64,000 bases of DNA from NCBI GenBank assembly GCA_963746315.1, contig CAVVAR010000002.1:32320-96319 (forward strand). The letters run 5' to 3'. Below, piece after piece: positions 23,717 to 61,704 of the stretch. The translations under genes and the position numbers were made by a program. How positions within the stretch are numbered: position 1 is the stretch's first letter; every line of letters begins with the position of its first letter. This DNA comes from an uncultured Alphaproteobacteria bacterium. Its GTDB lineage: Bacteria > Pseudomonadota > Alphaproteobacteria > Rhizobiales > Hyphomicrobiaceae. The notes beneath the pieces were generated by a model, which was not told the DNA's origin, did no database searches, and was given only the letters and a program-made list of their open reading frames with translations.

Positions 23717-23729
23717 TAACGTTTTGATA
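23717..23729 (-). promoter_or_regulatory. IHF-like site
   Basis: The minus strand reads TATCAAAACGTTA, which fits WATCAANNNNTTR. It sits in an AT-rich tract between the TTGCA repeats and the plus-strand -24/-12 candidate. Confidence 0.35.
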
Positions 23730-23757
23730 TGGAATGATTTTTTCATATTGGTCGTGC

Positions 23758-23772
23758 TGGCATACGACTTGA
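23758..23772 (+). promoter_or_regulatory. Candidate sigma54 -24/-12 promoter facing the glycosyltransferase operon
   Basis: TGGCAT-ACGAC-TTGA, the same variant as the minus-strand candidate. It lies 47 nt upstream of the ATG at 23819. Confidence 0.45.
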
Positions 23773-23818
23773 GTGTGAGGGCAGCAGAAAACACTAGCCC
23801 GCGCTCAGGAGCTTTACG

Positions 23819-24695
23819 ATGTCCGCCACCGCCCTTGCCCACGCCCCCGACGCCACCCGCCACACCGCCGAGTTCTTCTATCTCCCGACAGCCGCGGCTG
23901 CCCAGGCCACGCCTCGAACCGACTCCGGCGCCCTAATCGATCTCTTCGGCCTCTCGATTGCCGACGCAACCCTCGAAGAGGCTGCGCGGTGGCTCGTTCA
24001 CCAAGCTACGATCGGCCGTCGAACTCAACACCGCCTTCATCAACGCGCACTGCGTAAACGTCTCCTACCACAACGCGGCCTACCGCACGGTTCTCGCTGC
24101 GATGGACGTGCTCTTTGCCGATGGTGCCGGCCTCCGAATTGCTGCGAAAATCACCGGCCAGCGGTTCAGCGACAACGTCAACGGGACAGACCTGTTTCCA
24201 CTGCTGTGCGCGGAGGCGGCCGCCGCTGGGGTCTCCGTCTACATGCTCGGCGGTGGCCAAGGCGTTGCGGGCCAGGCAGCCAAGGCCATGTGCGGAGGCA
24301 CCCCGGGACTTGGCATCGCGGGAACCCAATCGGGCTTCTTCAAGGACCCCGCGGAGGAGGCCGACGCCATCGATGCCATCAATCGCAGCGGCGCCCGCAT
24401 CCTTCTCGTCGGCATGGGCGTACCGCTCCAGGAGCAGTGGATCGCGCGCAATCGTCATCGCATCAAAACCCCGGTGATCATCGGGGTCGGCGGCCTGTTC
24501 GACTACTACTCGGGCCGCATCCCCCGAGCCCCGCTGCCGCTGCGTCGTCTGGGCCTCGAGTGGACCTGGCGCCTCGCCATGGAGCCGAAGCGCCTCGCGC
24601 GCCGCTACCTGCTCGGCAACATCGAGTTTCTCGCCCGCCTGGCTGCTTTCCGCACGCTCGCCCCGACCGCACTCAGCGCCGCCAGCGCACGCTGA
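23819..24695 (+). CDS. WecB/TagA/CpsF family glycosyltransferase, one frame change
   Basis: The N-terminus LIDLFGLSIADATLEEAARWLVHQA is in ORF 23819... The remainder (NTAFINAHCVNV...DVLFADGAGLRIAAK...NGTDLFP...ILLVGMGVPLQEQWI...GVGGLFDYYSG...RAP...GLEWTWRL..EP.RL.RRY) is in ORF 23958..24695. The join is near 24013-24020. Confidence 0.8.
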
Positions 24696-24726
24696 TCCGA
24701 AATAACGAGCCAGGAGAAGTCCGACC

Positions 24727-26224: not shown

Positions 26225-26231
26225 GCGCGCC

Positions 26232-27354
26232 ATGCACCCCATAGCCGACACAACGCCGCGTGGGATCATGCCCTCACGCACAGCCAGCACCGTGTCCACG
26301 GCACCCCTGGGTCTGATCAACGCCTACTCGAGCCGCAACCTCGGCGATGCCGCCATCATGACGGCGATCGCCAACATGGCGCCCTCCGGACACGCCGTTG
26401 TCGCCCTCGCAGAGAAGCGCCCCTTGCCGCTCAAGCGGGTCGGCTTTCGTGGTGCGCTCGAGGACTGCGAGCACTTTGTCAGCGTCGGTGGAGACATCTT
26501 CAACAATGCCCGACCTCGCCTGGTGACCCGCAGTTTCCTGGCCAACGTCGGCGAGTTGGCCCGTCATCGGCGGAACGCCATCGTTTTCGGCCAGACCCTG
26601 CCCGCGTCGTGCCGGGGACCGTCGCTGGCTCTGTTGGCTTCGGTCCTCAGGCGAACCCGCGCCGTGGTGGTCCGCGACCGCGAAAGCCATCGCATCCTCC
26701 GTTCCAGGGGCGTCGAGGCTGAGCTGTCGTTCGACGCCGCCTTCGCGCTGGCGCCACAGGTCGAGGACATCCGCGCCGCGGCAGCATGGCTCGAGGCCCA
26801 AGGCCTGATGCCGACCAAGCTGGCACTCCTGTCGGTTCGCCCCTTCGACGCGCTCTATCCGCAGGACAGCGAGCGCTTCGTGGCGCGCATGGCGCGCCTC
26901 GCCGGCATGCTTGCGGACCGTGGCCTCCAGGTCGGCGTGCTCATCCAGGCCGCGGTCGGGCAGAGCGACGGCGACCATGAGGTAGCCGGGCGGATTGTTG
27001 CGGCCGAGCCTCGCACCCGCGTCGTGGACTGCTTGTCAGACGAAGGCACCGCGTACGATCCCGTCGGCCGCCTGATGGGCGTCATGGCCCTCGCGGAGAT
27101 CGTGGTTGCCGTTCGCTACCACGCCGCCGTCCTTCGAACTCGCAGCGGGACGCATGCCTTACCACATGCCCTATTCGCGCAAGGGCGCCGACCTGACGAC
27201 CCGGCTTGATCTCCCAGGCGCCTCGGTCAAGGCCTTCGACCCCGTGGCGCAGATCGACGACATCGTCGGCACGGCCGCGAAGGCCTTCGATCCGCGGCCG
27301 CTCGAGGCGGACGTGCGAGCCAGGTTCCACTCTGCGCTCTCGAGGCTGTCATGA
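26232..27354 (+). CDS. Polysaccharide pyruvyl transferase family protein, one frame change
   Basis: LINAYSSRNLGDAAIMTAI...VVRDRESHRIL...VAVRYHAAV is in ORF 26232... The C-terminus LAAGRMPYHMPYSRKGADL... is in ORF 27106..27354. The join is near 27130-27140. Confidence 0.7.
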
Positions 27355-31971: not shown

Positions 31972-33603
31972 TCATGGCTGCTGGTTGGCGCTCGGCGCGG
32001 TCTCGCGCTCGCGCAGGATCTTGCGGTTGACCTTGCCGGCCGGCGTCTTCGGCAGCTCGGCGACGAAAGCGATCTGGCGGGGGTACTCGTGGGCGCTGAG
32101 GCGACTGCGCACGTTCTCCTGGATCTCGCGGACGAAGGCGTCGTCGCCCAGGCGCGGGGAAACCACGAAGGCCTTGACGATTTGTCCACGGGTCGGGTCC
32201 GGGACGCCGATGGCGGCGGCCTCGCGCACGTCGGGGTGCTTGAGCATGGCATCCTCGATCTCGACGGCGCTCATGGTCCAACCGGCCGAGATGATGACGT
32301 CGTCGGCGCGGCCGCCGTGATAGAAATACCCGTCCTCGTCGGTCCATCCGAGATCCTTGCTGGGGATCCATTTATCGCGACGCCAGATCTTGATCTCGCC
32401 GATGGCTTTCGGCGGCAGTGGCTGGCCGTCCGGCCCTTGCACCTCGACGCGACCGCCGGGCAGAGGCTTGCCAAGCGCACCCGCGCGCACAGGGAGATCC
32501 GCAGCGCCCGGATAGCTGGCAAGGACGACACCGACCTCGGTGGTGCCGTAGAAGCTGGCGGGCAGGCTGCCGAATGTCCGCTCGGCGAAAGCGGCGGTCT
32601 CGCTGTCCATCGGCTCGCCGGTGAAGGTGAGCTTCTTCAGGTTAAAGGTGTAGCGCGCGGCGGTGCCGGCGTTGCGCATCATGCGGTAGTGGGTGGCGGC
32701 GGCCGAGAGATTGGTGACGCGGAAGTCCTGGAGGGCGCGCATCAGGCGATCGGCGTCGAAGCGGCCGGAATAGGCGCCGATGGTGAGGCCGAGGGCGAGC
32801 GGGGCCAGCGTGCCGTGCCAGAGGCCATGGCCCCAGGCGGGCGACGAGGGACAGAAGAACTCCTCGCCGGGCCTGACGCCGGTGCCGTAGAGCGCCGCGA
32901 TCATGACGACGACGATGGCGCGGTGGGTGTGTCGGACGGCCTCGGGCAATTCACGGGTGGTGCCGGAGGTATATTGGAAGCAGGCGAGGTCGTCGGATAT
33001 CGAGTCCCAGGCGAACTCCGCCGGAAAGCGCTCCAGGTCAGCGAGGAATGCATCGTCGGCGATGACGACGTCGAGGCCCGTCATGCCCTCGGCGATGGGG
33101 GCCTTCTCGGGGTTGGTCAGCAGCACCTTCGGCGTGCAGTCGTCGATGCGGAGGCGCAGGCCGTCGGGTCCGAACAGCGTGAAGAGCGGGACGGCGATGG
33201 CGCCCGCCTTGATCGCGCCGAACAGCCCCGCGTAGAAGGCGAGGGACGGCTCCAGCATGATGGCGACGCGGTCGCCCGGCTGAACGCCACGAGATCTCAA
33301 GAAATGGGCGACGCGCGAAGAGAGCACCTTCAGGCGCTCGAACGTGATGTGCTCGTCGTGGCCGTCGGCGAAGGCGATGCGGACGGCGACGCGATCCGGC
33401 GACATGGCGTGGCGGTCGATGCACTCGTGGGCCAGATTCAATCGCTCGCGCGAACCGTCGAACAGCTCCCATAGCTTCGGGATCGAGAAATGACGCTGGG
33501 CGTCCGCGTAGGTCGAATACTCGGTCAGCTTCACCGGCCCGGTCCGTGATTGCGCGTCTCGGCTCGCCGATCCGACATCGACAGCCTTGTTGTCCAGGTA
33601 CAA
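31972..33603 (-). CDS. AMP-dependent acyl-CoA synthetase/ligase
   Basis: The AMP-binding motif is FQYTSGTTRELPEAV. Also present are YGTTE, WIPSKDLGWTDEDGYFYHGGRADDVI and PKTPAGKVNRKILR. The start is probably internal (for example GTG at 33534), because the longest ORF abuts the divergent IclR ORF. Confidence 0.85.
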   Translation of the reverse strand: MYLDNKAVDVGSASRDAQSRTGPVKLTEYSTYADAQRHFSIPKLWELFDGSRERLNLAHECIDRHAMSPDRVAVRIAFADGHDEHITFERLKVLSSRVAHFLRSRGVQPGDRVAIMLEPSLAFYAGLFGAIKAGAIAVPLFTLFGPDGLRLRIDDCTPKVLLTNPEKAPIAEGMTGLDVVIADDAFLADLERFPAEFAWDSISDDLACFQYTSGTTRELPEAVRHTHRAIVVVMIAALYGTGVRPGEEFFCPSSPAWGHGLWHGTLAPLALGLTIGAYSGRFDADRLMRALQDFRVTNLSAAATHYRMMRNAGTAARYTFNLKKLTFTGEPMDSETAAFAERTFGSLPASFYGTTEVGVVLASYPGAADLPVRAGALGKPLPGGRVEVQGPDGQPLPPKAIGEIKIWRRDKWIPSKDLGWTDEDGYFYHGGRADDVIISAGWTMSAVEIEDAMLKHPDVREAAAIGVPDPTRGQIVKAFVVSPRLGDDAFVREIQENVRSRLSAHEYPRQIAFVAELPKTPAGKVNRKILRERETAPSANQQP

Positions 33604-33609
33604 TAATTA

Positions 33610-34515
33610 TTGTATCCGTGCAACATGGCGAAGCGAGCGACAGTTCTCGATCGAGGCGACAGCGTGGACGGGCATGCTAGCGCCCCGGTCATGGCGGATG
33701 CCTCGGCGCGCGCCGTGCCGGCAGTGACGCGTGGCATCGCGATCCTGCGGTTGCTGGCCCGCAGCAGCGAGCCCCTGGGTGTGAACGCGATAGCGCGCGA
33801 GCTCGAGATCGTACCGAGCACGTGCCTCCATATCCTGCGTGCGCTGGTGGCCGAGGAGATGGTCGCGGTCGACCCGGCGACCAAGCGGTATGTGCTGGAC
33901 GCGGGCGTGCTGACGCTGGCGAGAAGCGCGTTGCGCCAGGACAGTTTCGCGCAGATCGCACAGCCGGAGCTGGACAGCTTGTCGGCGTTGCTTGGCGTGA
34001 CGGCGATTGGAGTCCGGGTGATCGGGCTGCAGCATATGATCGTGGTCGCAATCTCCCGGTCAGAGGTTGCATTCCGGCTGCATGTCGACGTGGGCAGCCG
34101 GTTCCCCGCCTTGATCAGCGCGACGGGACGCTGCCTGGCAGCTTTCGGCCAGCATTCCGCAGGCGATATCGAGCGCGCGTTCCGGGCTCTAAGGTGGGAT
34201 GCTGCGCCGAGCTACGAGGACTGGCGGGCCGAGGTCGCCTCGACCCGGCGCGCGGGGTTCGGCGTCGACAAGGGCAACTACATCCGCGGCGTGACGATCG
34301 TTGCGGCGCCGGTCATCGGCATCGAGGGCTGGATGACGCACGCGCTGGTGACGGTGGGTCTCAGCGATCAGATGCGCCGACCTGGGCCAAGCGAGGTTGG
34401 TGCCGGGTTGCGTGCGGCGGCAGCGCGGGTTTCCGCGCAGCTCGGCGGCTTCGACGGGCTGACAGGTGCGGCTGTTGCGCCAGCGGGTCCGAATGGCAAC
34501 AATGAGCGCAAGTAG
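33610..34515 (+). CDS. IclR family transcriptional regulator
   Basis: The HTH is VTRGIAILRLLARSSEPLGVNAIARELEIVPSTCLHILRALVAEEMV. A C-terminal effector domain follows. The start is uncertain (33610, 33625 or 33691). Confidence 0.8.
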   Translation: MYPCNMAKRATVLDRGDSVDGHASAPVMADASARAVPAVTRGIAILRLLARSSEPLGVNAIARELEIVPSTCLHILRALVAEEMVAVDPATKRYVLDAGVLTLARSALRQDSFAQIAQPELDSLSALLGVTAIGVRVIGLQHMIVVAISRSEVAFRLHVDVGSRFPALISATGRCLAAFGQHSAGDIERAFRALRWDAAPSYEDWRAEVASTRRAGFGVDKGNYIRGVTIVAAPVIGIEGWMTHALVTVGLSDQMRRPGPSEVGAGLRAAAARVSAQLGGFDGLTGAAVAPAGPNGNNERK

Positions 34516-34537
34516 CATTCACACAGGGAGCAGCCGC

Positions 34538-35695
34538 ATGCCGGGAGCACTCGAGGGTCTCGTCGTTCTCGATCTGACGAGCCTGTTGTCTGGGCCCTAC
34601 GCGGCGATGATGCTCGCCGATCACGGTGCCGACGTCATCAAGGTCGAGCGTAAGGGCAAGGGCGACGATGCGCGCCGGATGCCGCCGTTCGTCGAGGGCG
34701 AGAGCGCGCCATTCATGATCTGGAACCGCAACAAGCGGTCGGTGGAGCTGGATTTCAAGGACGAGGGGGACCGCGCGCGGCTGCTCGACATGGCCGACGG
34801 CGCGGACATCGTCATCGAGAACTTCCGGCCCGGAACGATGGACCGGCTGGGACTCGGCTACGAGGTGTTGAAGGCGCGCAATCCGCGGCTGATCTATGCG
34901 GCGATCTCCGGCTTCGGGCAGACGGGGCCCTATGCGAGCCGGGGCGGCTTCGATCTGATGACGCAGGGCATGTCGGGCTTGATGAGCACATGCGGGCCGG
35001 AGGAAGGGCCCCCGCACCGGCTGCCGATCGCAATCTCGGACGTGGCCGCGGGCATGTTTCTCGCGTTCGGCATTCTGGCCGCCGTCGAGGCGCGGCATCG
35101 GACTGGGCGCGGGCAGATCGTCGAGACCTCGCTGTTGGAGGCGGCAACCTCGTTCGGCGTCTATGAGGCGGCGCACTATTCGGCGCTCGGCACACGGCCG
35201 GAGCGGATCGGGCAGGCGCATCGGGGCAGCGCGCCGTATCAGTGCATCGCGGCGTCGGACGGCTACATGACGATCGGTGCGGCGCAGCAGAATTTCTGGG
35301 AGCGGTTCGCGGACATCATCGGGCGGCCAGAGCTCAAGGACGATCCGCGCTTCCGCACAAACGCCGACCGCGTCGCCAACAACACCGCGCTGATCGAGAT
35401 GATCGAGGCCGTGATGCGCACGAAGCCCAAGGCGCACTGGCTTGCAGCGATGGAGGCGGCAGGAATTCCGTGCGGCCCGGTGCTCAACTACGACGAGGTT
35501 TTCACCGATCCGCACATTCTGGCGCGCGACATGTACGTGCCGACCGAGCATGCCCGCGCTGGCACGTTCAATACGCTGGGCGTGACGGTGAAGCTCTCGG
35601 AGACGCCGGGTGCCGTCAGGTCGGCGGCGCCGACGCTCGGCCAGCACAACGACGAGATCCTGCCCGGCGGATTTACTGCCGCGCGCAAAGCCTGA
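34538..35695 (+). CDS. CaiB/BaiF family (class III) CoA-transferase
   Basis: LEGLVVLDLTSLLSGPYAAMMLADHGADVIKVE...RNKRSVELDFK...ADIVIENFRPGTMDRLGLGYE. AGGGAG lies 7 nt before the ATG at 34538. Confidence 0.9.
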   Translation: MPGALEGLVVLDLTSLLSGPYAAMMLADHGADVIKVERKGKGDDARRMPPFVEGESAPFMIWNRNKRSVELDFKDEGDRARLLDMADGADIVIENFRPGTMDRLGLGYEVLKARNPRLIYAAISGFGQTGPYASRGGFDLMTQGMSGLMSTCGPEEGPPHRLPIAISDVAAGMFLAFGILAAVEARHRTGRGQIVETSLLEAATSFGVYEAAHYSALGTRPERIGQAHRGSAPYQCIAASDGYMTIGAAQQNFWERFADIIGRPELKDDPRFRTNADRVANNTALIEMIEAVMRTKPKAHWLAAMEAAGIPCGPVLNYDEVFTDPHILARDMYVPTEHARAGTFNTLGVTVKLSETPGAVRSAAPTLGQHNDEILPGGFTAARKA

Positions 35696-35746
35696 CGGGC
35701 GCCTTCTGCCCGAGATTCGATCCAGACCAACCGACGGAGCAACGAG

Positions 35747-36055
35747 ATGTCCGCAACCTATGCCGTGGTATGGCCGCGCAGCGCGCGGTCGGTCGAGGTC
35801 AAGGCGCTCGCGCCGCGGCTTGCCTCGCTCGAGGGGAAGACGGTCGCGTTCCTCTGGGACTACCTGTTCCGGGGCGACGAGATCTGGCCGACGCTCTCGG
35901 AGGAGCTCGGGCGGCGTTATCCGGGCATGCGGTTCATCGGATGGGAGGAGTTCGGCTCGACCCACGGTGACGAGGAGCACAAGGTGCTGGCGGAGTTGCC
36001 GGCTAAGCTCAAGTCCTTGAAGGTGGACGCTGTCGTCTCCGGCATGGGCTGTTGA
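35747..36055 (+). CDS. N-terminal part of a candidate selenoprotein; the TGA at 36053 lies inside a C-U-G-S-C motif (UGSC / GrdB-like)
   Basis: The ORF ends ...LKVDAVVSGMGC-TGA. The same frame continues GSCTPAVLRVSAIAEAAGVP with protein-like composition. The rest of the domain continues in ORF 36093.. after a frame change near 36113. Confidence 0.6.
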   Translation: MSATYAVVWPRSARSVEVKALAPRLASLEGKTVAFLWDYLFRGDEIWPTLSEELGRRYPGMRFIGWEEFGSTHGDEEHKVLAELPAKLKSLKVDAVVSGMGC

Positions 36056-36091
36056 GGCTCATGCACCCCCGCCGTGTTGCGGGTCAGCGCA
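36053..36091 (+). promoter_or_regulatory. Candidate bacterial SECIS hairpin following the in-frame UGA
   Basis: The upper stem CCCGC (36068-36072) / GCGGG (36079-36083) carries the loop CGUGUU and starts 12 nt after the UGA. A possible lower stem is UGC (36062-36064) / GCA (36089-36091). Confidence 0.4.
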
Positions 36092-36092
36092 A

Positions 36093-37478
36093 TTGCCGAA
36101 GCTGCCGGAGTTCCCGACCTCGTCGCTCTGCTGCGAGGGGTTCCTCGGACAAGCCAAAACGACATCGGTCGGGCTCGGATACCCGAACCTGCCACTCGCC
36201 ACCGTGCCCGGTCACGTCGACGTGCAGACGGAAGCCGATCTCAGGAAGAACGTGCTCGAGGTGACCGCCGATCTGGTCGTCGGAAACCTCACGGGCGAGG
36301 CCCCGGCAGTGGCCGTGACACGCGATCCCGATCCGAAGGAGATCGTGCTCGAAGGATCATTCGAGGACGTCAATCGTCTGTTCCTCGAGAACGGCTGGTC
36401 GGACGGGCTGCCGATCGTGCCGCCGACGAAGGAGAAGATCGCGGAGTTCCTGGCGTTCACCGATCGCGATCCCGACGCGGTGATCGGGACTTTGCTGCCG
36501 GATAATCGCAAGGCGACGGTGTGGAACGTGGCGGTCAATGGCGTGATGGCCGGGTGCCGGCCGGAGTACATGCCGATCCTCGTCGCGGCCGTCGAGGCGA
36601 TGGCCGATCCGGGCTATGGCGTCGAGCATTCGGGCAACACGCCGGGGGCCGACACGCTGCTCATTCTCAATGGTCCGCTGATCAAGCAGCTGGGCTTCAA
36701 CACCGAGCAGGGCGCGTTACGCGACGGGTTCCAGCCGAATACGTCGATCGGGCGGTTCTGGCGGCTCTATCAGCGCAACGTCGCCGGATTCATGCTGCAC
36801 CAGAACGACAAGGGCACGTTCGGCAACACGTGGCGGGTGGTGCTGGCCGAGAACGAGGACAGCCTTGCGAAAATGGGCTGGCCGAGCATCGCCGCCGACA
36901 TGGGGCATGCCGGCGCGAAGGACGGCGCCATCACCATCTCGCGCTTTACCGGGAGCAATGCGGTCGTCTCGGTGTTCGGCAATTCAGCCGAGAAGCTGGT
37001 GCCGTATCTGGGACAGGCCATCGTTACGCACACGACGTGGGAGGTGATCTTCACGGTGGGGCTTGCGACGGGGACGTACCGGCCGCTGCTGCTGCTCTCG
37101 CCGCTGATCGCCGAGGCAATCGCGCGGTCGGGCTGGAGCAAGGCCGATCTCCAACGGGCTCTGTTCGAGCAGGCGCGCATGCCGGCGCACCAGTTCGAGA
37201 AGTACCTCTGGGGCTGGACCAACCTCGTTCCAGGCAAGCGGACGCTCAACGACTGGGTGCGGCTCGGCAAGGCACCGAAGGTGTTTGCAGGAAAGGATCC
37301 CGATCGGATGGTTCCAGTGGTCACGGAGCCCGAGCACATCATGATCGCAGTGGCGGGCGATCCGATGCGCTCGAACTGCCACCTGCTGGTGCACAACGGC
37401 ATGCTCGGTTTCCCGACCACGAAACCGATCATATTGCCGGAGGGCTGGCGGCAGAAGCTCCGGAAGGCGCAGGCCTAG
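36093..37478 (+). CDS. Uncharacterised protein: first ~65 codons continue the UGSC/GrdB-like domain, the remainder is paralog 1 of an unnamed family
   Basis: The N-terminus SSLCCEGFLGQAKTTSVGLGYPNLPLATVPGHVDVQ continues the selenoprotein module. From about 36290 the family signature is GWSDGLPIVPPTKEKIAEFLAFTDRDP...NGVMAGCRPEYMPILVAAVEAMADP...LNGPL. No stop codon separates the two parts. Confidence 0.6.
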   Translation: MPKLPEFPTSSLCCEGFLGQAKTTSVGLGYPNLPLATVPGHVDVQTEADLRKNVLEVTADLVVGNLTGEAPAVAVTRDPDPKEIVLEGSFEDVNRLFLENGWSDGLPIVPPTKEKIAEFLAFTDRDPDAVIGTLLPDNRKATVWNVAVNGVMAGCRPEYMPILVAAVEAMADPGYGVEHSGNTPGADTLLILNGPLIKQLGFNTEQGALRDGFQPNTSIGRFWRLYQRNVAGFMLHQNDKGTFGNTWRVVLAENEDSLAKMGWPSIAADMGHAGAKDGAITISRFTGSNAVVSVFGNSAEKLVPYLGQAIVTHTTWEVIFTVGLATGTYRPLLLLSPLIAEAIARSGWSKADLQRALFEQARMPAHQFEKYLWGWTNLVPGKRTLNDWVRLGKAPKVFAGKDPDRMVPVVTEPEHIMIAVAGDPMRSNCHLLVHNGMLGFPTTKPIILPEGWRQKLRKAQA

Positions 37479-37482
37479 GCGC

Positions 37483-38718
37483 ATGGCGGTTGGCAGCGAC
37501 AGCCTCTGGCTCGTGATCCCGGCTGGGGAGACAGCGGCCGGAGGCTGGATCGACGACACGCTCCGGGAGCGTGCGGCGGAAAGCGGCCTCCTTTCGCGGA
37601 CGCCGCTCGCGGGGCAGTTTCCGCGACAGCGGGTGGAGGTGGTGGCGGGGCCGGACAGTGGGGCAGTCGCGCAACGGCTCTATCGCGCGCGCGGGTGGAC
37701 GGACGGGCTGCCGATCGTGCCGCCGACGACGGCGCGTGTGCGCGACATGCTGGCGTTCACGGACAGGAAGCCGAGCGACGCCCTGGGCGAGGTCGAGCCG
37801 CTGAAGGGGATAGCCACGATCGAGAAGGTCGCGAGCAATGCCGTGATGGCTGGTTGCCGGGCTGACTATTTTCCGGTCGTGCTGGCAGCGGTCGAAGCCG
37901 TGCTCGATCCGGCCTTCAATCTGCGCGGCCTCCAGACGACGGACGAGAACGCGGCGCCGCTGATCGTCGTCAACGGGCCGCTGACGCGGGCGCTCGACAT
38001 CAACGGCTCGTTCGGGGCGCTTGGACCGGGCTGGCGGGCCAATGCCGCGATCGGTCGTGCGGTGCGGCTGGTGCTCAACAATCTCGGCGGCGGGTGGCCC
38101 GGGTCGGTGTCGTTTGCGGGCCTAGGGCATGCCGGGCGCTACACGATGTGCATCGCCGAGAACGAGGTGCAGAGCCCGTGGGAGCTGCTGCACGTCGAGC
38201 AGGGCCTCGCGAAAGAGACCAGCGCGGTGACGTTGTTCCGGGCCGAGACGGCGATCAACGTGACGGGAGGGCTGGCGGAGATCGCGAGCGTGATGGGCTC
38301 GGCGGCGTCGGCCTTCCAGATCCTCTGGAACGGCATCGCCACCGTGCTGCTGTCGCCCGCCACGGCCAATGCACTCGCACGTGATGGGATGTCGAAGAAC
38401 GACGTGGCAGCCTGGCTGTGGAGAGAGGGGCGCTGGCCGGCGGATCAGTGGCGCGCGTCGTGGCTCTATCGCACGGTCGAATCGCCCGAGCGGTGGGCGC
38501 CCTGGGTGCATGCGTCGGCCGCGGACGGCGCAGTGGCACCGACGGCGCGACCGGAGGACATCACCGTCGTCGTGGCCGGCGGCGATATCCCGATCGCGCA
38601 ACATGTCTATTGCCCGTCGTGGGGTTTCCCGCCGGCACGCGTGGCGCGGGCGATCGCGTTGCCACTAGACTGGGAGAGGCTCCATGCCGAAGCACGCGAG
38701 GGAGAGAACGCAGCATGA
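37483..38718 (+). CDS. Uncharacterised protein, paralog 2 of the same unnamed family
   Basis: GWTDGLPIVPPTTARVRDMLAFTDRKP...NAVMAGCRADYFPVVLAAVEAVLDP...VNGPL is collinear with the upstream protein. It starts 5 nt after the upstream stop codon. Confidence 0.7.
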   Translation: MAVGSDSLWLVIPAGETAAGGWIDDTLRERAAESGLLSRTPLAGQFPRQRVEVVAGPDSGAVAQRLYRARGWTDGLPIVPPTTARVRDMLAFTDRKPSDALGEVEPLKGIATIEKVASNAVMAGCRADYFPVVLAAVEAVLDPAFNLRGLQTTDENAAPLIVVNGPLTRALDINGSFGALGPGWRANAAIGRAVRLVLNNLGGGWPGSVSFAGLGHAGRYTMCIAENEVQSPWELLHVEQGLAKETSAVTLFRAETAINVTGGLAEIASVMGSAASAFQILWNGIATVLLSPATANALARDGMSKNDVAAWLWREGRWPADQWRASWLYRTVESPERWAPWVHASAADGAVAPTARPEDITVVVAGGDIPIAQHVYCPSWGFPPARVARAIALPLDWERLHAEAREGENAA

Positions 38719-39632
38719 GCGGTAAGTGCGACGTGGCGGTGGTCGGCGGTGGGATCACCGGGCTCACGGCCGCGCATCATGCGGCACTGGAGGGCGCCTC
38801 GGTGGTGCATTACGTCGGGTCCGGTGTTCCGGGCGGCCTCGTCGCCAACGTCGGTGAGCTCGAGGGATTTCCGGCGGCGGGTAGCGTGGCCGCGCTCGAC
38901 GTGGCGCTGCGGCTCACGGAGGAGAACGAGCGGCTCGGTGTCGAGGTGGTGCCCGAGGATGTGGCGCGGCTCGAGGCGACCGGATCGCTGTGGCGGCTCG
39001 CGACGGAGGCGGGTACGCGCGAGGCGCGAAGCGTGGTGGCGGCCACCGGCGCGCGGCTTCGGATGATCGACGTGCCGGGAGCGGCGCGGCTCACCGACAA
39101 GGGCCTGTCGCAATGCGCATGGTGCAACGGCAGCCTTTATCGCGGGGCCGAGGTCGTGGTGATCGGCGGCGGCGATAGCGCCCTTCAGGAGGCGCTCCAT
39201 CTCGCGAAATATGCATCGCTGGTGACGATCGTGACACGAGGGGAGACGCTGAAGGCGCGGCGCTCGCTGGTCGACCGGGCTGCCGACAACGAGCGCATCG
39301 CGTTCCGGTGGGAGACGGATGTCGTCGAGGTGCTGGGCGGCGACAGCGTGACGGGGATCAACGTACGCGAGCGGACCGCGGGAGAGGTGGAGCACATCGG
39401 CTGCGCCGGTGTCTTCGTCTATATCGGGCTCGCGGCCAACGCCGACTGGCTCGCGGGGCAGATCGATCGCGACAGTGACGGGTGTGTGCTGACGGATGCG
39501 AGCCTTGCGGCGTCGGCAGCGGGAGTGTTCGCGGCCGGTGCCGTGCGCCGGGGCTATGGCGGGCGCCTGACACATGCCGTCGGTGAGGCAACGACGGCCG
39601 CGCTCGCTGCGGCGCGCCATGCGGCGGCTTGA
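38715..39632 (+). CDS. Thioredoxin-reductase-like FAD/NAD(P)H pyridine nucleotide-disulfide oxidoreductase
   Basis: The FAD motif is DVAVVGGGITGLTAA. The redox dithiol is CAWC (LSQCAWCNGSLY; compare CATC in TrxB). The NADPH motif is VVVIGGGDSALQEA, and GVFAAGAV is also present. The ATGA start overlaps the upstream stop codon. Confidence 0.8.
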   Translation: MSGKCDVAVVGGGITGLTAAHHAALEGASVVHYVGSGVPGGLVANVGELEGFPAAGSVAALDVALRLTEENERLGVEVVPEDVARLEATGSLWRLATEAGTREARSVVAATGARLRMIDVPGAARLTDKGLSQCAWCNGSLYRGAEVVVIGGGDSALQEALHLAKYASLVTIVTRGETLKARRSLVDRAADNERIAFRWETDVVEVLGGDSVTGINVRERTAGEVEHIGCAGVFVYIGLAANADWLAGQIDRDSDGCVLTDASLAASAAGVFAAGAVRRGYGGRLTHAVGEATTAALAAARHAAA

Positions 39633-43339: not shown

Positions 43340-45276
43340 TGAGCCTCTTGGAAACGGCGGAGACCTCGACGCTCCCCAAGCTCGTCGTGCGCAATGCCCG
43401 CCACTTCGGCTCCGAGCCCGCGATGCGCGAGAAAGACCGCGGCATCTGGCAGACCATGTCGTGGAGTGATGCGGCGGCATTCCTTCGGGACTTGTCGCTC
43501 GGCCTCGGCACGCTGGGGTTCGGGCGTGACGACAAGCTGTCGGTGGTCGGCGACAACAGACCGGCGCTCTATCTGGCTCAGCTTGCCGCGCAGGCGGCGG
43601 GCGGCGTGGCGATACCCGTCTACCAGGACGCGATCGCGACCGAGCTCGTCTACGTGCTGAACCACGCCGAGGTCTCGGTGATCGTCGCCGAGGACCAAGA
43701 GCAGGTCGACAAGATCCTGTCGCTGCGGGACGAACTGCCCAACCTGAAGTGGATCGTCTACGAGGACCCGCGCGGGCTTGCCGGATCGGACGAGCCGCTC
43801 CTGATGTCGCTCGAGGACGTGCTCGCGGCAGGGCGGAAGGTCGAAGGCGGAGCCGCCAAGTTCGAGCGCGAGCTGGCCCTCGGTGGCGCCGACGACGTAG
43901 CGATGATTGCCTACACGTCGGGCACGACGGGGCGGCCGAAGGGTGCGCTGCTGACGCACCGCAATATGGTCGGCACAGCTGAGAACTACATCAAGGGCGA
44001 GCGGGTGGATCGTGGCGACAACTGGCTCGCCTTCCTGCCGATGGCCTGGGTAGGCGATGCGATGTACTCGCTGGCCGTCGCGCTGGTGGCCGGTGCCACT
44101 GTCAACTGTCCGGAAAGCCCGGAGACGGTGCAGCGGGACCTACGCGAGCTGGGGCCGACCATCGTGCTGGCGCCGCCGCGGATCTGGGAGACGCTGCTGA
44201 CGCAAGTGCAGGTGCGTGCGGGGGATTCGTCGTTCCTCAAGCGGCGCACGTTCGAGTATTTCATGAAGCTCGCGGAGAAGCGCGAGCTGCTGCTGCAGGA
44301 CGGCAAGCCGGTGCCACTCGGGACGCGGCTCGGCTATGCGCTCGGCGAGTGGCTGGTCTATGGGCCGGTTCGCGATCTGCTCGGGTTCCGGCTGACGCGC
44401 TGGGCGGTCACGGGTGGGGCACCACTCGGTCCGGACACATTCCGCTTCTTCCGCTCGATCGGCATCAACCTGAAACAAGTTTACGGGCAGACCGAAGCGT
44501 CGGCGCTCGTCGCCTTTCAGCGCGACGGCAACGTCGATCCAAACACGGTCGGCGAGCCGGTGCCGGGGCTCGAGTTCCGGATCGCGGAGAATGGCGAGCT
44601 GCAGGTGAAGGGGCCGGGCGTGTTCATCGGCTACTACAAGCAGGATGACGTCACGGCCGAGACCAAGACCGCAGATGGCTGGCTCAGGACGGGCGACGCG
44701 GCGGTGATCTCGCCGCAAGGGCAGCTGGCGATCATCGACCGTGCGAAGGACGTCGGCCGGCTTGCCGACGGGACGCCGTTTGCGCCGCAGTTCATCGAGA
44801 ACAAGCTCAAGTTCTCGCCATTCATCCGCGAGGCGGTGGCATTCGGTGATGGCATGGACTTCGTCGCCGCGATGATCGCCATCGACATGGAGACGGTGGG
44901 TAACTGGGCCGAGCGCAAAGGGCTCGCCTATACGAGCTTCATGGATCTGGCGCGCAAGCCCGAGGTGGCCGGCCTGATCGTGCAGGAGGCGGCGAAAATC
45001 AACGCGACGCTCCCGGAAGAGACGCGCGTGCGGCGCGTGCTGCTGCTGAACAAGGAGCTCGACGCCGACGATAACGAGGTGACGCGGACCCGGAAGGTGC
45101 GTCGCAGCTACGTGGCGGAGAAATACAAGCCCGTGATCGACGCCTTCTACGGCGGCAAGGACAGCGCCGCAGTGTCGATCGAAATCACCTTCGAGGATGG
45201 GCGCAAGTCGACGCTCGACGCCACGATCGCCATACACGACGTGCCGCCAGCCGGCTCGGCGAAACAGGCGGCTTGA
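43336..45276 (+). CDS. AMP-binding long-chain acyl-CoA ligase embedded in the ABC operon
   Basis: IAYTSGTTGRPKGALLTHRN, YGQTE, GWLRTGDA...IIDRAKD. The ATGA start overlaps the LivG-like stop codon. Confidence 0.85.
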   Translation: MMSLLETAETSTLPKLVVRNARHFGSEPAMREKDRGIWQTMSWSDAAAFLRDLSLGLGTLGFGRDDKLSVVGDNRPALYLAQLAAQAAGGVAIPVYQDAIATELVYVLNHAEVSVIVAEDQEQVDKILSLRDELPNLKWIVYEDPRGLAGSDEPLLMSLEDVLAAGRKVEGGAAKFERELALGGADDVAMIAYTSGTTGRPKGALLTHRNMVGTAENYIKGERVDRGDNWLAFLPMAWVGDAMYSLAVALVAGATVNCPESPETVQRDLRELGPTIVLAPPRIWETLLTQVQVRAGDSSFLKRRTFEYFMKLAEKRELLLQDGKPVPLGTRLGYALGEWLVYGPVRDLLGFRLTRWAVTGGAPLGPDTFRFFRSIGINLKQVYGQTEASALVAFQRDGNVDPNTVGEPVPGLEFRIAENGELQVKGPGVFIGYYKQDDVTAETKTADGWLRTGDAAVISPQGQLAIIDRAKDVGRLADGTPFAPQFIENKLKFSPFIREAVAFGDGMDFVAAMIAIDMETVGNWAERKGLAYTSFMDLARKPEVAGLIVQEAAKINATLPEETRVRRVLLLNKELDADDNEVTRTRKVRRSYVAEKYKPVIDAFYGGKDSAAVSIEITFEDGRKSTLDATIAIHDVPPAGSAKQAA

Positions 45277-45286
45277 GGAGACGGGA

Positions 45287-46180
45287 ATGCAAGAAGAGCT
45301 TGAGTTCCTGTTCGCCCTGTTGATGAGCGGCTTATCGATCGGCATGATGTACTCGCTGATCGCGCTCGGCTTCGTGCTCGTCTACAAGGCGACCGACGCC
45401 ATCAATTTCGCGCAGGGCGAGTTCGTCATGCTGGCGGGCTTCATGTGCGCGACGGTGCTGACCTACAATTTTCCCCTCTGGCTCGCGATCCTGATCGCGA
45501 TCGGGCTCATGGTGGGATTCAGCTTTGCCCTGGAGAGGGTGGTGCTGCGCCCCCTTCTCGGGCGACCGGTGGTGGCCGTGATCATGGCGACGATCGGCCT
45601 GGCGGCCATTCTGCGCGGATTGCCGCCGATCACGATCGGCGCGCAAACCAAGACCATTCCGCTGCCGATCGGCGACGAGCCGGTGCAATTCTTCTGGGCG
45701 TCGCTGCCGCCGATCCAGGTGCTCGGCATCGCGGTGTCGGCGCTGTGCCTCGCCGGGTTCACGTGGTTCTTCATGAAGAGCCGGATGGGTGTCGCGATGC
45801 GCGCCGTCGCCGACAACCAGCAGGTCGCCATGGCCATGGGTATCAACGTCGAGCGCTACTTCGCGATCGCGTGGGCCATGGCGGGAATCGTCGCAGCGCT
45901 CGGCGGCATCATCTGGGGATCGATGCTCGGCGTCGACACGCAGCTGGCGCTGGTCGGCCTCAAGGTGTTTCCCGTGGTCATCCTCGGCGGGCTGGATTCG
46001 ATCATCGGCGCGGTGGTCGGCGGTCTCATCATCGGCGTCGTCGAGAGTATCGCGGCTGGGTATCTCGACCCGGTCGTCGGCGGCGGCACCAAGGATTTCG
46101 CGCCTTACGTGATCATGATCATCGCGTTGATGTTCAAGCCGTACGGCTTATTCGGCAAGCGCAAGATCGAGCGCATCTGA
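45287..46180 (+). CDS. Branched-chain amino acid-type ABC permease (LivH-like)
   Basis: LLMSGLSIGMMYSLIALGFVLVYKATDAINFAQGEF. GAGGAG lies upstream of the ATG at 45287. Confidence 0.9.
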   Translation: MQEELEFLFALLMSGLSIGMMYSLIALGFVLVYKATDAINFAQGEFVMLAGFMCATVLTYNFPLWLAILIAIGLMVGFSFALERVVLRPLLGRPVVAVIMATIGLAAILRGLPPITIGAQTKTIPLPIGDEPVQFFWASLPPIQVLGIAVSALCLAGFTWFFMKSRMGVAMRAVADNQQVAMAMGINVERYFAIAWAMAGIVAALGGIIWGSMLGVDTQLALVGLKVFPVVILGGLDSIIGAVVGGLIIGVVESIAAGYLDPVVGGGTKDFAPYVIMIIALMFKPYGLFGKRKIERI

Positions 46181-46210
46181 GGTCCATCCGACCAGAGGGA
46201 AGAGCAGCCC

Positions 46211-47278
46211 GTGTTCTATCGCGAAGCCGGAAACTTCAAGACCTCGTACGCCGACGACATGGCGCTGTTCCCGCTGCCGTTGACGCGGTGGAGCGCCTGG
46301 GCCCTGCTGGTGCTGTTCGCGCTGATCGTGCCGCTCGTCCTGCACGAGTACTATCTGTCGATCTTCAACCTGATCTTCATCGCCACCGTCGGCGCGCTAG
46401 GGCTCAACATCCTGGTCGGATGGACGGGCCAGATATCGATCGGGCACGCGGCCTTCATGTCGGTCGGGGCCTATACGGCGGCCAATCTCGCGACGAAACT
46501 CGGGCTGCCGTTCTGGGTGACGCTACCCGCGGGCGGACTGATGGCGGCCCTTATAGGTGCGATCGTCGGCATTCCATCGCTGCGCATCAAGGGTACCTAT
46601 CTCGCGATCGCCACGCTGGCGAGCCAGCTGATCATCGAGTGGATCATCAATCATACGCCGGCGATCTCGGGCGGCGCCTCGGCCTCGATCGAGGTCGCGC
46701 GGCCGTCGTTGTTCGGCTACGATCTCAAATCGCAGCGCGACCTCTATTTCTTCACGCTGTTCTTTGCGGTCGTGGCGATCGTCGCGACCATGAACCTGGT
46801 GAGGAGCCGGATCGGGCGGGCGTTCATCGCCATCCGCGACCAGGACATCGCGGCCGAGATCATTGGCATAAATATCTTTCGCTACAAGCTGATCGCGTTC
46901 GCCATCTCGTCGTTCTACGCGGGCGTGTGCGGGGTGCTCTACACCTACTATTTCGGGATCGCGAACTACGAGGCGTTCCAGATCGTGGTGTCGATCGACT
47001 ATCTCGCGATGGTGATCATCGGGGGGCTCGGTTCGGTGCTGGGATCGGTGCTCGGGGCGGTTTTCGTCACGGCGCTGCCGGTGGTGATCCGGCTCGTGGT
47101 CGAAGCATTCGGCGGCTACATCTGGGATACGGCCGCGCTGTCGGCGGTGGCGGCCAGCATGCGGCTGGTCATCTTTGGCGCGCTGATCATCTTCTTCCTG
47201 GTGGTCGAGCCGGAGGGACTCGCGCGGCTCTGGCGCAACATTCGCAATTATTTTCGGACCTGGCCTTTCTCGTACTGA
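46211..47278 (+). CDS. Branched-chain amino acid-type ABC permease (LivM-like)
   Basis: GLNILVGWTGQISIGHAAFMSVGAYTAA...IPSLRIKGTYLAIATLA. Confidence 0.9.
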   Translation: MFYREAGNFKTSYADDMALFPLPLTRWSAWALLVLFALIVPLVLHEYYLSIFNLIFIATVGALGLNILVGWTGQISIGHAAFMSVGAYTAANLATKLGLPFWVTLPAGGLMAALIGAIVGIPSLRIKGTYLAIATLASQLIIEWIINHTPAISGGASASIEVARPSLFGYDLKSQRDLYFFTLFFAVVAIVATMNLVRSRIGRAFIAIRDQDIAAEIIGINIFRYKLIAFAISSFYAGVCGVLYTYYFGIANYEAFQIVVSIDYLAMVIIGGLGSVLGSVLGAVFVTALPVVIRLVVEAFGGYIWDTAALSAVAASMRLVIFGALIIFFLVVEPEGLARLWRNIRNYFRTWPFSY

Positions 47279-61703: not shown

Positions 61704-61704
61704 C

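What the first reader, a model, noticed from the sequence alone, without database searches (positions are those of the whole stretch)
35747..36120. In-frame TGA inside a Cys-TGA-Gly-Ser-Cys motif: candidate selenocysteine codon of a UGSC/GrdB-like selenoprotein
ORF 35747..36055 ends ...LKSLKVDAVVSGMGC-TGA. The same frame then reads GSCTPAVLRVSAIAEAAGVP, which has normal protein composition rather than intergenic character. The next gene-like signal follows with no gap.

Reading TGA as Sec gives the motif C-U-G-S-C-T. As I recall it, selenoprotein B of glycine/sarcosine/betaine reductase (GrdB) has a U-x-x-C redox motif sitting after a beta-strand-like DAV..S/T stretch and before an A-G-I/V-P segment (UxxCxxC in GrdB). 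I also recall an NCBI family name, UGSC family (seleno)protein.

Standard gene callers would truncate this gene to a 102-aa hypothetical protein. A GrdB-like selenoprotein in an apparently aerobic alphaproteobacterial context, outside the Stickland-type Grd/Prd operons, is poorly understood biology.
Basis: partly seen in the sequence, partly recalled or inferred. Interest (0 to 1): 0.85.

Follow-up and report, generated by a model that had tools for sequence, protein, structure and literature searches.

The report
UGSC selenoprotein gene with frameshift
The in-frame TGA is very probably a genuine selenocysteine codon in a member of the already-described, widespread but functionally uncharacterised "UGSC" selenoprotein family (not GrdB), and in this assembly the gene is also broken by one extra G 61 bases after the TGA.

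Summary
ORF 35747..36055 ends GMGC-TGA and the frame continues GSCTPAVLRVSAIAEAAGVP.

TGA 36053-36055 is best read as selenocysteine:
- With the frame corrected, Pfam UGSC (PF24696) spans the TGA (99 bits).
- All 82 related loci keep TGA there, with open frame on both sides.
- More distant full-length homologs carry Cys at that column.
- A hairpin 11 nt after the UGA (36067-36084) is invariant even at synonymous sites and has one covarying pair.

- The gene is about 576 codons long: a UGSC domain fused to a roughly 400-aa domain with no Pfam, NCBIfam or PDB relative. This is probably the "UGSC/Unknown_1 fusion" published in 2008.
- The window has a unique extra G at 36116 that shifts the frame. 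Removing it restores a 1731-nt CDS, the same length as in the five nearest relatives. Window-specific changes downstream are 44 synonymous to 9 nonsynonymous. So the shift is a sequencing error or a very recent mutation.

GrdB/PrdB membership is not supported. A paralog of the C-terminal domain and a CxxC thioredoxin-reductase-like flavoprotein usually follow, suggesting an NAD(P)H-driven selenol/thiol relay (inferred). The selABCD genes and tRNA-Sec could not be checked. This is an already known kind; interest is modest.

The parts
35747..36052 (+). First 102 codons of the selenoprotein gene (N-terminal half of the UGSC domain), ending ...DAVVSGMGC
   Evidence: PF24696 match to profile positions 2-92 (36 bits). 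Window-specific changes are 9 synonymous and 0 nonsynonymous. Conserved in 81 of 82 loci.
36053..36055 (+). TGA read as selenocysteine (U of the C-U-G-S-C-T redox motif)
   Evidence: TGA in 82 of 82 related loci. Cys at this column in full-length homologs P0045, P0068, P0077, P0094 and P0102. The Pfam domain spans it.
36056..36115 (+). Continuation of the CDS in the original frame (GSCTPAVLRVSAIAEAAGVP)
   Evidence: Identical peptide in relatives P0002, P0003 and P0006.
36067..36084 (+). SECIS-like upper stem-loop. The stem is CCCGC/GCGGG (36068-36072 paired with 36079-36083), the loop is CGUGUU (36073-36078), and the closing pair is 36067/36084 (a C-U mismatch in the window). It starts 11 nt after the UGA.
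   Evidence: Five pairs are invariant in 80 of 80 sequences. The closing pair is 39 G-C, 27 A-U, 5 G-U and 9 unpaired, and 0 of 500 shuffles reach the observed covariation score. Codons +5, +6, +7 and +9 have zero synonymous variation in 81 of 81 sequences, while nearly all other invariant four- or six-fold sites have 0.9-2.0 bits.
36116..36116 (+). Extra G (GTT CCC G ACC against GTT CCC ACC) causing a +1 frame change. Unique to this window.
   Evidence: DNA alignment with L001 and L002. It is the only locus of 83 without a long downstream in-frame ORF. It is the only uncompensated 1-nt indel inside the genes of this cluster (window ~33.6-39.6 kb) in the alignment with L001. The insertion was not found in metagenome contigs.
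36117..37478 (+). Rest of the same gene in the +1 frame: the second half of the UGSC domain (to about 36290), then a roughly 400-aa C-terminal domain (motifs GWSDGLPIVPPT, AVNGVMAGCRPEY, HSGNTPG), with stop TAG at 37476-37478
   Evidence: With the G removed, PF24696 covers profile positions 2-167 of 172 at 99 bits. 94% identity to P0001-P0005 and 93% to P0006. 44 synonymous to 9 nonsynonymous window-specific changes. The C-terminal domain has no Pfam, NCBIfam or PDB relative.
37483..38718 (+). Stand-alone paralog of the C-terminal domain (411 aa). It keeps GWTDGLPIVPPT and AGCR but lacks HSGNTPG.
   Evidence: 34% identity over 367 aa, E = 2e-46. It lies directly downstream on the same strand in 57 of the 75 loci with enough DNA.
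38715..39632 (+). Thioredoxin-reductase-like FAD/NAD(P)H flavoprotein with a CAWC redox motif. Its start overlaps the paralog's stop (ATGA).
   Evidence: TIGR01292 at 225 bits, below the 343 cut-off, and PF07992. Present in 45 of 82 loci, 35 of them directly after the paralog, and CxxC is kept in 45 of 45.
34466..35695 (+). Family III CoA-transferase immediately upstream (the true start is probably later than 34466). Lineage-specific neighbour.
   Evidence: PF02515 at 448 bits. Homologs occur in 12 of 82 loci and in the Cys-form locus L083.
33610..34515 (+). IclR-type regulator at the head of the cluster, with the only promoter-like site of the region at 33578-33607
   Evidence: Synteny with L001 and L002 genes carrying PF09339 and PF01614. 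Promoter and terminator scan.

Best explanation
Window 35747..37478 is one gene for a UGSC-family selenoprotein.

Shown:
- It has an N-terminal redox domain of about 180 aa. In the AlphaFold model of a 59%-identical Cys homolog, the motif C-U-G-S-C-T sits between a beta-strand and the following helix.
- This domain is fused to a roughly 400-aa domain with no detectable relative in Pfam, NCBIfam or the PDB. It is probably the 'UGSC/Unknown_1 fusion' of Zhang & Gladyshev 2008.
- TGA 36053-36055 sits where distant homologs have Cys.
- A conserved hairpin lies 11 nt downstream of the TGA (36067-36084).
- In this assembly one extra G at 36116 shifts the frame.

Inferred:
- The TGA is decoded as selenocysteine, with SelB and Sec-tRNA recruited by the hairpin.
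- Everything else about the gene is intact and still looks selected. So the shift is either a sequencing or assembly error, or a very recent inactivating mutation. I put these at roughly 60:35.
- Mechanism: NAD(P)H reduces FAD and the CxxC of the downstream thioredoxin-reductase-like protein. That in turn reduces the U-x-x-C selenenylsulfide of the UGSC domain. The UGSC domain then delivers reducing equivalents to the fused C-terminal domain (invariant Cys in AGCRPEY), which probably works as a heteromer with its paralog.
- The substrate is probably a small carboxylate or acyl-CoA.
For: Family:
- PF24696 at 99 bits across the TGA once the frame is corrected; 36 bits for the 102-aa ORF alone.
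- NCBI names 85-89%-identical orthologs 'UGSC family (seleno)protein'.

Sec codon:
- TGA in 82 of 82 loci from many phyla, with open frames on both sides.
- Cys at that column in 578-607-aa homologs.
- 9:0 and 3:0 synonymous to nonsynonymous window-specific changes on the two sides of the TGA.

SECIS:
- Five invariant pairs plus one covarying pair; 0 of 500 shuffles reach the observed covariation score, and slid registers collapse.
- Zero synonymous variation only at the four hairpin codons.
- The 11-nt spacer and the loop G fit what I recall of the E. coli fdhF and bSECISearch models (my own knowledge).

Frameshift:
- Single extra G, unique among 83 loci.
- The corrected CDS is 1731 nt, as in the five nearest relatives, with 44:9 synonymous to nonsynonymous changes downstream.
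- No other uncompensated indel inside the genes of this cluster (window ~33.6-39.6 kb).

Module:
- Paralog directly downstream in 57 of 75 loci.
- TrxR-like protein in 45 of 82 loci, with CxxC in 45 of 45.
- TrxR-like protein adjacent in the Cys-form locus too, and a thioredoxin adjacent in L085.
- Carboxylate transporters and CoA enzymes recur in the neighbourhoods.

Literature:
- The family, its UxxC motif and the fusion are described, with function unknown.
Against: - No tRNA-Sec in the 64-kb window, and no selA, selB or selD among the 25 window ORFs scanned.
- The hairpin is not more stable than shuffled sequence (z = 0.15), and its closing pair is a C-U mismatch in the window.
- Only one pair covaries. 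The rest of the RNA evidence is conservation, not covariation.
- NCBIfam NF041046 scores only 46 bits against a cut-off of 125.
- As it stands, the window's gene cannot make the full-length protein.
- The redox-relay mechanism rests only on gene neighbourhood and motifs. About 45% of loci show no TrxR-like gene within 6 kb, and some lack the paralog.
- The model has no convincing structural neighbour (best Foldseek E = 2e-3).
- I did not test whether the C-terminal domain here is the published Unknown_1. The supplementary alignment is held only as an image.
Confidence: 0.9

Rival explanations
1. The TGA is an ordinary stop. A 102-aa protein and a separately initiated protein of about 467 aa are two genes, as the gene callers report.
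For: Gene callers split the relatives this way. A GTG lies 18 nt after the TGA. Sec machinery is not demonstrable in the window.
Against: - One Pfam domain spans the stop.
- Cys-containing homologs are single ORFs.
- The stop is TGA in 82 of 82 loci, never TAA or TAG.
- The 18 nt between the TGA and the GTG encode an invariant GSCTPA peptide, and RNA-level conservation overlaps this region.
- The split would cut a compact alpha/beta domain right at its redox motif.
Confidence: 0.04
2. The extra G at 36116 is real, so the gene is a recent pseudogene in this organism. Alternatively it is split into a truncated Sec peptide plus a 461-aa product starting at TTG 36093.
For: The insertion is not in a homopolymer run (CCC-G-ACC), which makes a classic homopolymer-length error less likely. 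The cluster shows no other frame errors, so the assembly looks accurate.
Against: There is no second lesion. Window-specific changes downstream are 44 synonymous to 9 nonsynonymous, so any inactivation is extremely recent. The variant was not found in any other public contig. The insertion is unique among 83 loci.
Confidence: 0.35
3. The extra G is bypassed by +1 ribosomal slippage of tRNA-Pro on CCC-G (CCC to CCG), which would regenerate exactly the ancestral ...GVP-TSSL... protein. The frameshift would then be tolerated or programmed.
For: The shift site is a CCC-N motif, which I recall as prone to +1 slippage of tRNA-Pro (my own knowledge). A +1 slip there gives the consensus protein sequence.
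Against: None of the 82 relatives has this arrangement, so there is no conservation to suggest programming. There is no stimulatory stop or rare codon in the A site (GAC), and no obvious downstream stimulator was examined. Spontaneous slippage is normally around 1% or less.
Confidence: 0.03
4. The protein is a GrdB/PrdB-type selenoprotein B of a glycine, sarcosine, betaine or proline reductase.
For: Both use a U-x-x-C motif, and a thioredoxin-reductase-like gene lies in the cluster, as in grd operons. The logic of a Sec-based reductase fed by a TrxR-type flavoprotein is similar.
Against: PF07355 gives no hit at E <= 1. The motif is UGSCTPA, not UxxCxxC. No grdA, grdC, grdD, grdE or prdA lies within 10 kb in the syntenic relatives. 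The literature lists UGSC and PrdB/GrdB as distinct families.
Confidence: 0.02

Closest known systems
UGSC-containing selenoprotein family (Pfam PF24696; NCBIfam NF041046 'UGSC family (seleno)protein'; Zhang & Gladyshev, PMC1976440 and PMC2398784)
   Same: Same U-G-S-C (UxxC) motif at the same profile column. The Pfam model is matched end to end. The Sec form is far commoner than the Cys form (255 to 21 in GOS; all of the 82 best loci here are Sec forms). It occurs in aerobic aquatic and soil Proteobacteria. Function is unknown.
   Different: The score against the NCBIfam equivalog model is below its cut-off (46 bits against 125), which suggests a divergent, fused subfamily rather than the stand-alone form that the 147-position model appears to represent. 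This copy carries a frameshift.
'UGSC/Unknown_1 fusion' (Fig. S1A of PMC2398784)
   Same: A UGSC domain followed in the same chain by a conserved domain of unknown function containing a conserved Cys. This is the architecture found here.
   Different: I could not confirm residue by residue that Unknown_1 is this C-terminal domain, because the supplementary alignment is held only as an image. The conserved downstream paralog and TrxR-like gene are not mentioned in the passages I read.
Thioredoxin reductase / thioredoxin system
   Same: A low-molecular-weight TrxR-like flavoprotein with a CxxC motif lies next to a small alpha/beta domain with a UxxC motif at a strand-to-helix junction. This fits a dithiol/selenolthiol electron relay.
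   Different: The UGSC domain model gives flavodoxin-like rather than thioredoxin-fold matches, all weak. The TrxR-like protein is below the TIGR01292 cut-off and has CAWC or CAFC rather than CATC. The acceptor domain is covalently fused.
Glycine/D-proline reductase selenoproteins GrdB/PrdB (PF07355)
   Same: A Sec in a UxxC context, and a reductive enzyme logic with a TrxR-type electron supply. It may 'work like' these in outline.
   Different: No sequence similarity was detected, there is no UxxCxxC motif, no Grd or Prd partner subunits, and the host lineages differ (relatives are mostly Proteobacteria and other non-Firmicute MAGs; a Rieske oxygenase nearby hints at aerobic metabolism). It is not a member.
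Bacterial SECIS elements (E. coli fdhF type)
   Same: A stem-loop within the coding sequence, an 11-nt spacer after the UGA, a G in the small apical loop, and the loop starting 17 nt after the UGA. The comparison values are from my own knowledge of the fdhF and bSECISearch models.
   Different: The sequence is unrelated to fdhF. The upper stem is a very G+C-rich 5-6 bp helix with loop CGUGYU. No bulged U is evident. Rfam has no model that matches it.

Membership tests
UGSC family (Pfam PF24696) | Significant full-length match to the family HMM | tested here: met
   99 bits, E = 4.4e-28, profile positions 2-167 of 172, gathering score 25, for the frame-corrected product. The 102-aa ORF alone gives 36 bits over positions 2-92.
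UGSC family (NCBIfam NF041046, equivalog) | Score above the curated cut-off (125 bits) | tested here: not met
   46.4 bits, E = 4e-12, profile positions 2-141 of 147. Even so, NCBI names 85-89%-identical orthologs 'UGSC family (seleno)protein'.
UGSC family | U/C-G-S-C redox motif at the conserved column, with Cys-containing homologs aligned to the TGA | tested here: met
   C-TGA-G-S-C-T in the window and in 82 of 82 loci. CCGACT and ACGSCT in full-length homologs.
Bacterial selenoprotein gene (general) | SECIS stem-loop immediately downstream of the UGA, under RNA-level selection | tested here: met
   Hairpin at 36067-36084. Five invariant pairs and one covarying pair. Zero synonymous variation at its four codons only. 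The single-sequence folding energy is not distinctive.
Bacterial selenoprotein gene (general) | Genome encodes selA, selB, selC (tRNA-Sec) and selD | not testable with these tools
   No tRNA in the window. No Sel protein among the 25 window ORFs scanned. ORFs outside that set were not scanned. The rest of the genome is unavailable and the window's own record was not found.
Bacterial selenoprotein gene (general) | Intact reading frame through and beyond the UGA | tested here: not met
   The frame is open for only 20 sense codons of conserved sequence after the TGA. The extra G at 36116 then shifts it. The frame is intact in all 82 relatives.
GrdB/PrdB (Pfam PF07355 GRDB) | Match to the GRDB HMM | tested here: not met
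   No PF07355 hit at E <= 1 for either the 102-aa ORF or the corrected 576-aa product.
   The sequence is U-G-S-C-T-P-A, with no third Cys.
GrdB/PrdB | Operon with grdA, grdC, grdD, grdE or prdA partners | tested here: not met
   Neighbours within 10 kb in the syntenic L001 and L002 are an IclR regulator, a CoA-transferase, the paralog, a TrxR-like protein, a Rieske oxygenase and ABC transporter genes.
Thioredoxin-disulfide reductase (TIGR01292), for the neighbour at 38715..39632 | Score above the cut-off, and a CxxC redox motif | tested here: inconclusive
   225 bits against a cut-off of 343. The CxxC is present (CAWC) and conserved in 45 of 45 orthologous neighbours. It is TrxR-like, not an equivalog.

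The most novel reading that the evidence does not exclude
The conserved three-gene module is a previously unrecognised enzyme system. The module is the Sec-containing UGSC-domain fusion, its paralog and a dedicated CxxC TrxR-like flavoprotein. On this reading it is an NAD(P)H-driven selenol/thiol reductase, or a redox-dependent isomerase, of small carboxylates or acyl-CoAs. It would be a functional counterpart, in the largely proteobacterial and other non-Firmicute lineages found here, of the clostridial glycine and proline reductases. It would also give a function to one of the most abundant orphan selenoprotein families in aquatic metagenomes.
Probability: 0.3. Interest if true: 0.6.

Novelty: already known. 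Interest (0 to 1): 0.3.

Why it matters
For annotation: this locus should be one selenoprotein gene of about 576 codons (35747..37478) with a Sec codon and a flagged frameshift. It should not be a 102-aa hypothetical protein plus a 461-aa ORF. The same split is present in public gene calls of its relatives.

For biology: the UGSC family is among the most abundant prokaryotic selenoprotein families in aquatic metagenomes, and it still has no known function. The neighbourhood pattern gives a concrete hypothesis to test, but it is inference only. The pattern is the fusion, its paralog and a CxxC TrxR-like flavoprotein, often beside carboxylate transporters and CoA-transferases.

The finding itself does not reveal a new kind of system. 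The GrdB framing that made it look unusual does not hold.

Tried and rejected
- Rfam scan of 35600-36400 at E <= 10: only two chance-level hits and no SECIS model.
- Single-sequence folding of the post-UGA region: not more stable than shuffles (z = 0.15). I therefore used comparative evidence.
- My first hand-written structure string was shifted by two columns and gave meaningless counts. A second had the wrong length. The corrected count is.
- Looking up the window's own 411-aa protein to identify the source record: not on record.
I modelled the 59%-identical Cys homolog P0045 instead.
- Foldseek against the PDB and a profile search against PDB sequences gave no credible relative for the C-terminal domain. 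I did not check which query residues the weak flavodoxin-like Foldseek hits cover.
- Searching the 2008 paper's supplements for the domain's motifs failed because the figure is held as an image.
- NCBIfam scans of 20 further window ORFs found no selA, selB or selD.
- The metagenome scan for the insertion-bearing variant found only the L001 contig, which lacks the insertion.
- The paralog count (79 of 82) was inflated by hits to the fusion's own C-terminal domain. The conservative count is 57 of 75.
- A crude scan for other same-frame ORF pairs separated by TGA found only 45137-46180 / 46181-47278. These correspond to two separate permease genes in L001.
Full report
**1. The observation**

The sequence is as described.
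- ATG 35747, with GGAG 9 nt upstream, opens a 102-codon ORF ending ...LKVDAVVSGMGC.
- TGA follows at 36053-36055.
- The same frame then reads GSCTPAVLRVSAIAEAAGVP, up to 36115.

Beyond that point the frame degenerates into Arg-rich sequence typical of an off-frame in a 65% G+C genome, and it stops at 36505. The +1 frame reads TSSLCCEGFLGQAKTTSVGLGYPNLPLATVPGHV... and stays open to 37478.

**2. Family**

I spliced ...GVP to TSSLCC... and wrote Cys for the TGA.
- The resulting 576-aa product matches Pfam UGSC (PF24696) at 99 bits (E = 4.4e-28) over profile positions 2-167 of 172.
- The 102-aa ORF alone covers only positions 2-92, at 36 bits. The domain therefore spans both the TGA and the frame change.
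- NCBIfam NF041046 (UGSC_fam) is hit at 46 bits, below its 125-bit cut-off.
- GRDB (PF07355) is not hit at all at E <= 1.

**3. Homologs**

A search of 5.8 billion proteins gave more than 5,000 significant hits.
- Most are 465-468 aa and cover 81% of the query. The closest (93-94% identity) begin M/VLRVSAIAEAAGVPTSSLCCEGF.... These are genes called from the GTG 18 nt after the TGA, and they read straight through the place where the window changes frame.
- Several 85-89%-identical ones are named 'UGSC family (seleno)protein' by NCBI.
- A minority of 578-607 aa (53-59% identity) cover the whole query and carry Cys at the TGA column: GMGCCGACT in P0045 and GVGACGSCT in P0068, P0077, P0094 and P0102.

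**4. The TGA across genomes**

- Two syntenic relatives (L001, L002) show the same caller artefact: a 102-aa PF24696 ORF followed 18 nt later by a 467-aa ORF.
- A scan of species-representative genomes returned 80 more loci. They come from Alpha-, Beta- and Gammaproteobacteria, Acidimicrobiia, Dehalococcoidia, Methylomirabilota, Nitrospinota, Myxococcota and others.
- All 82 loci have TGA at this column. At least 100 codons are open upstream in all but two contig-truncated loci, and 461-477 codons are open downstream in the same frame. The window alone breaks off, after 149 codons.

**5. SECIS**

I aligned 80 distinct 69-nt segments around the TGA.
- The consensus structure is a hairpin with five invariant pairs, CCCGC/GCGGG, and loop CGUGYU.
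- Its closing pair is G-C in 39 sequences, A-U in 27, G-U in 5 and unpaired in 9. The window has C-U.
- On an extended version of the helix, 0 of 500 shuffles reach the observed covariation score, and slid registers collapse from 92% paired to 23-61%.
- The most telling evidence is at synonymous sites. Over codons -40 to +45, the only multi-codon positions with zero codon entropy are +5, +6, +7 and +9 (CCC, GCC, GTG, CGG in 81 of 81). These are exactly the hairpin codons. Nearly all other invariant Gly, Ala, Ser, Thr, Pro and Leu positions show 0.9-2.0 bits.
- The stem starts 11 nt after the UGA, and the loop has a G at its second position. This agrees with what I recall of the E. coli fdhF minimal SECIS and the bSECISearch model (my own knowledge, not verified here).
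- The folding energy of the single sequence is unremarkable (z = 0.15), and Rfam has no matching family.

**6. The frameshift**

- Alignment with L001 and L002 shows one extra G at 36116: GTT CCC G ACC against GTT CCC ACC.
- In a 9.4-kb alignment to L001 at 84% identity, it is the only uncompensated single-base indel within the genes of this cluster (window ~33.6-39.6 kb). The other 1-nt gaps inside genes come in compensating pairs a few bases apart.
- Deleting the G gives a 1731-nt CDS, the same length as in the five closest relatives.
- Substitutions private to the window, where L001 = L002 = L003 but the window differs, are 9 synonymous to 0 nonsynonymous before the TGA. They are 3 to 0 between the TGA and the shift, and 44 to 9 after the shift in the corrected frame. 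The lineage was under purifying selection on the full-length frame until essentially the present.
- A metagenome-wide pattern scan allowing 0 or 1 base at the site found only the L001 contig, without the insertion.
- The window's own record is not in the gene-position index.
- I cannot distinguish a sequencing or assembly error from a very recent mutation. A +1 slip of tRNA-Pro on CCC-G would regenerate the ancestral protein, but nothing suggests it is programmed.

**7. Architecture and neighbourhood**

- The AlphaFold model of the Cys homolog P0045 (mean pLDDT 84.8, pTM 0.88) shows an N-terminal alternating beta/alpha domain. The redox motif lies between strand 97-103 and helix 108-121. A large second domain follows.
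- Foldseek against the PDB gives nothing below E = 1e-3. The high-probability weak hits are flavodoxin-like domains such as azoreductase, NQO1, MccF and flavodiiron protein. I did not check which part of the query they align to.
- A family profile finds no PDB sequence relative.
- The C-terminal domain has invariant motifs GWSDGLPIVPPT, AVNGVMAGCRPEY and HSGNTPG.
- The next ORF (37483..38718) is its paralog: 34% identity, E = 2e-46. It keeps the first two motifs but not HSGNTPG.
- The following ORF (38715..39632) is thioredoxin-reductase-like (TIGR01292 at 225 bits, below cut-off, and PF07992) with a CAWC motif.
- Across the 82 loci, the paralog lies directly downstream in 57 of the 75 loci with enough sequence. 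A TrxR-like gene is present in 45 loci, 35 of them immediately after the paralog, and always with CxxC.
- A Cys-form locus has the TrxR-like gene immediately upstream.
- One locus has a triple fusion followed by a thioredoxin.
- CoA-transferase III, ECH, acyl-CoA ligases, TRAP and Tct carboxylate transporters, FAA-hydrolase and Amdase genes recur nearby but are not constant.
- No terminator-like site separates the genes from 33.4 to 40.2 kb. The one promoter-like site precedes the IclR gene.

**8. Mechanism**

The shown and inferred steps are set out under Best explanation. In brief, the Sec reading rests on the comparative evidence in sections 2-5. The NAD(P)H to TrxR-like to UGSC-domain relay, and a small carboxylate or acyl-CoA substrate, rest only on gene neighbourhood and motifs.

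**9. What is known**

- The UGSC-containing protein was reported as a selenoprotein of unknown function in Hyphomonas neptunium and in metagenomes (PMC1976440).
- It was one of the most abundant selenoprotein families in the GOS data: 255 Sec forms to 21 Cys forms, with a UxxC motif. That paper noted a fusion to a conserved 'Unknown_1' domain (PMC2398784).
- Recent reviews still list it (as NF041046) with no assigned function.
- PrdB/GrdB is listed there as a separate family.
- The finding is therefore a correct recognition of a known selenoprotein family, with an unsupported GrdB analogy.

**10. Limits**

- Sec machinery could not be assessed. There is no tRNA in the window, and no SelA, SelB or SelD among the 25 ORFs scanned. 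The remaining window ORFs were not scanned.
- I could not verify from the text held that the published Unknown_1 domain is the C-terminal domain here.

Noticed in passing
window 53632-55968 (+), repeats 54058-55229: This region explains the compositional spike (GC 0.72, AT skew 0.33). It encodes a 778-aa protein with eight tandem 49-aa (147-nt, 91% matching) Glu/Ala/Arg-rich repeats that look like coiled coil. The C-terminal region carries RRDRR...DRSSSG, which resembles the PilZ c-di-GMP-binding motifs (my reading; not tested with an HMM).
   Followed up: partly
window ~19300-27200: An exopolysaccharide biosynthesis cluster: a chain-length-determinant-like protein, an export protein (weak PEP-CTERM/XrtA-type hits), GalU, a WecB/TagA/CpsF glycosyltransferase, an undecaprenyl-phosphate glucose phosphotransferase and a CsaB-like pyruvyl transferase.
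   Followed up: no
window 13494-16133 (+) and 16576-18138 (-): A hybrid sensor histidine kinase/response regulator (TorS/ArcB/LuxQ-like) lies next to a LuxO-like sigma-54-dependent response regulator (558 bits against NF041946, cut-off 800).
   Followed up: no
window 37483-38718 compared with 36300-37478: The stand-alone paralog keeps GWTDGLPIVPPT and the AGCR cysteine. It replaces the fusion's invariant HSGNTPG with LQTTDENA. This suggests one catalytic and one non-catalytic subunit if the two form a heteromer.
   Followed up: partly
L085 9001-11586 (P0066, 861 aa); P0047 (888 aa): In some genomes the fusion and its paralog are joined into one longer ORF (UGSC-domain fusion plus paralog), followed in L085 by a thioredoxin gene. 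In P0047, an Arg-rich off-frame-like stretch links the two recognisable domains, and the paralog portion also breaks down into similar sequence towards the C-terminus. It looks like a frameshifted or misassembled read-through rather than a true fusion.
   Followed up: partly
L001-L082, TrxR-like neighbours: The redox motif of the TrxR-like neighbour varies: CAWC (18), CAFC (14), CDWC (5), CAYC (3), CASC (3), CAAC (1) and CATC (1). An aromatic residue usually replaces the Thr of canonical TrxR CATC.
   Followed up: no
window 45137-46180 and 46181-47278 (+): Two high-GC3 stop-to-stop segments lie in the same frame, separated by a single TGA. This superficially resembles a read-through candidate. 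They correspond to two separately called BPD_transp_2 permease genes in L001, so this is chance frame coincidence and not a Sec candidate.
   Followed up: partly
window 60399-61703 (+) and 61552-63225 (+): A NifS/IscS-like cysteine desulfurase (TIGR03402 at 322 bits, below cut-off, with a weak selenocysteine-lyase SclA hit at 45 bits) is followed by a 558-codon ORF that I did not identify. It is relevant only in that cysteine desulfurases can also act on selenocysteine.
   Followed up: no
window 36067/36084: The covarying closing pair of the SECIS hairpin is a C-U mismatch in the window (Thr codon ACC with Val GTC). The same state occurs in only 3 of 80 sequences, and another 5 have C-C. It is within natural variation but is the weaker state of the helix.
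   Followed up: yes
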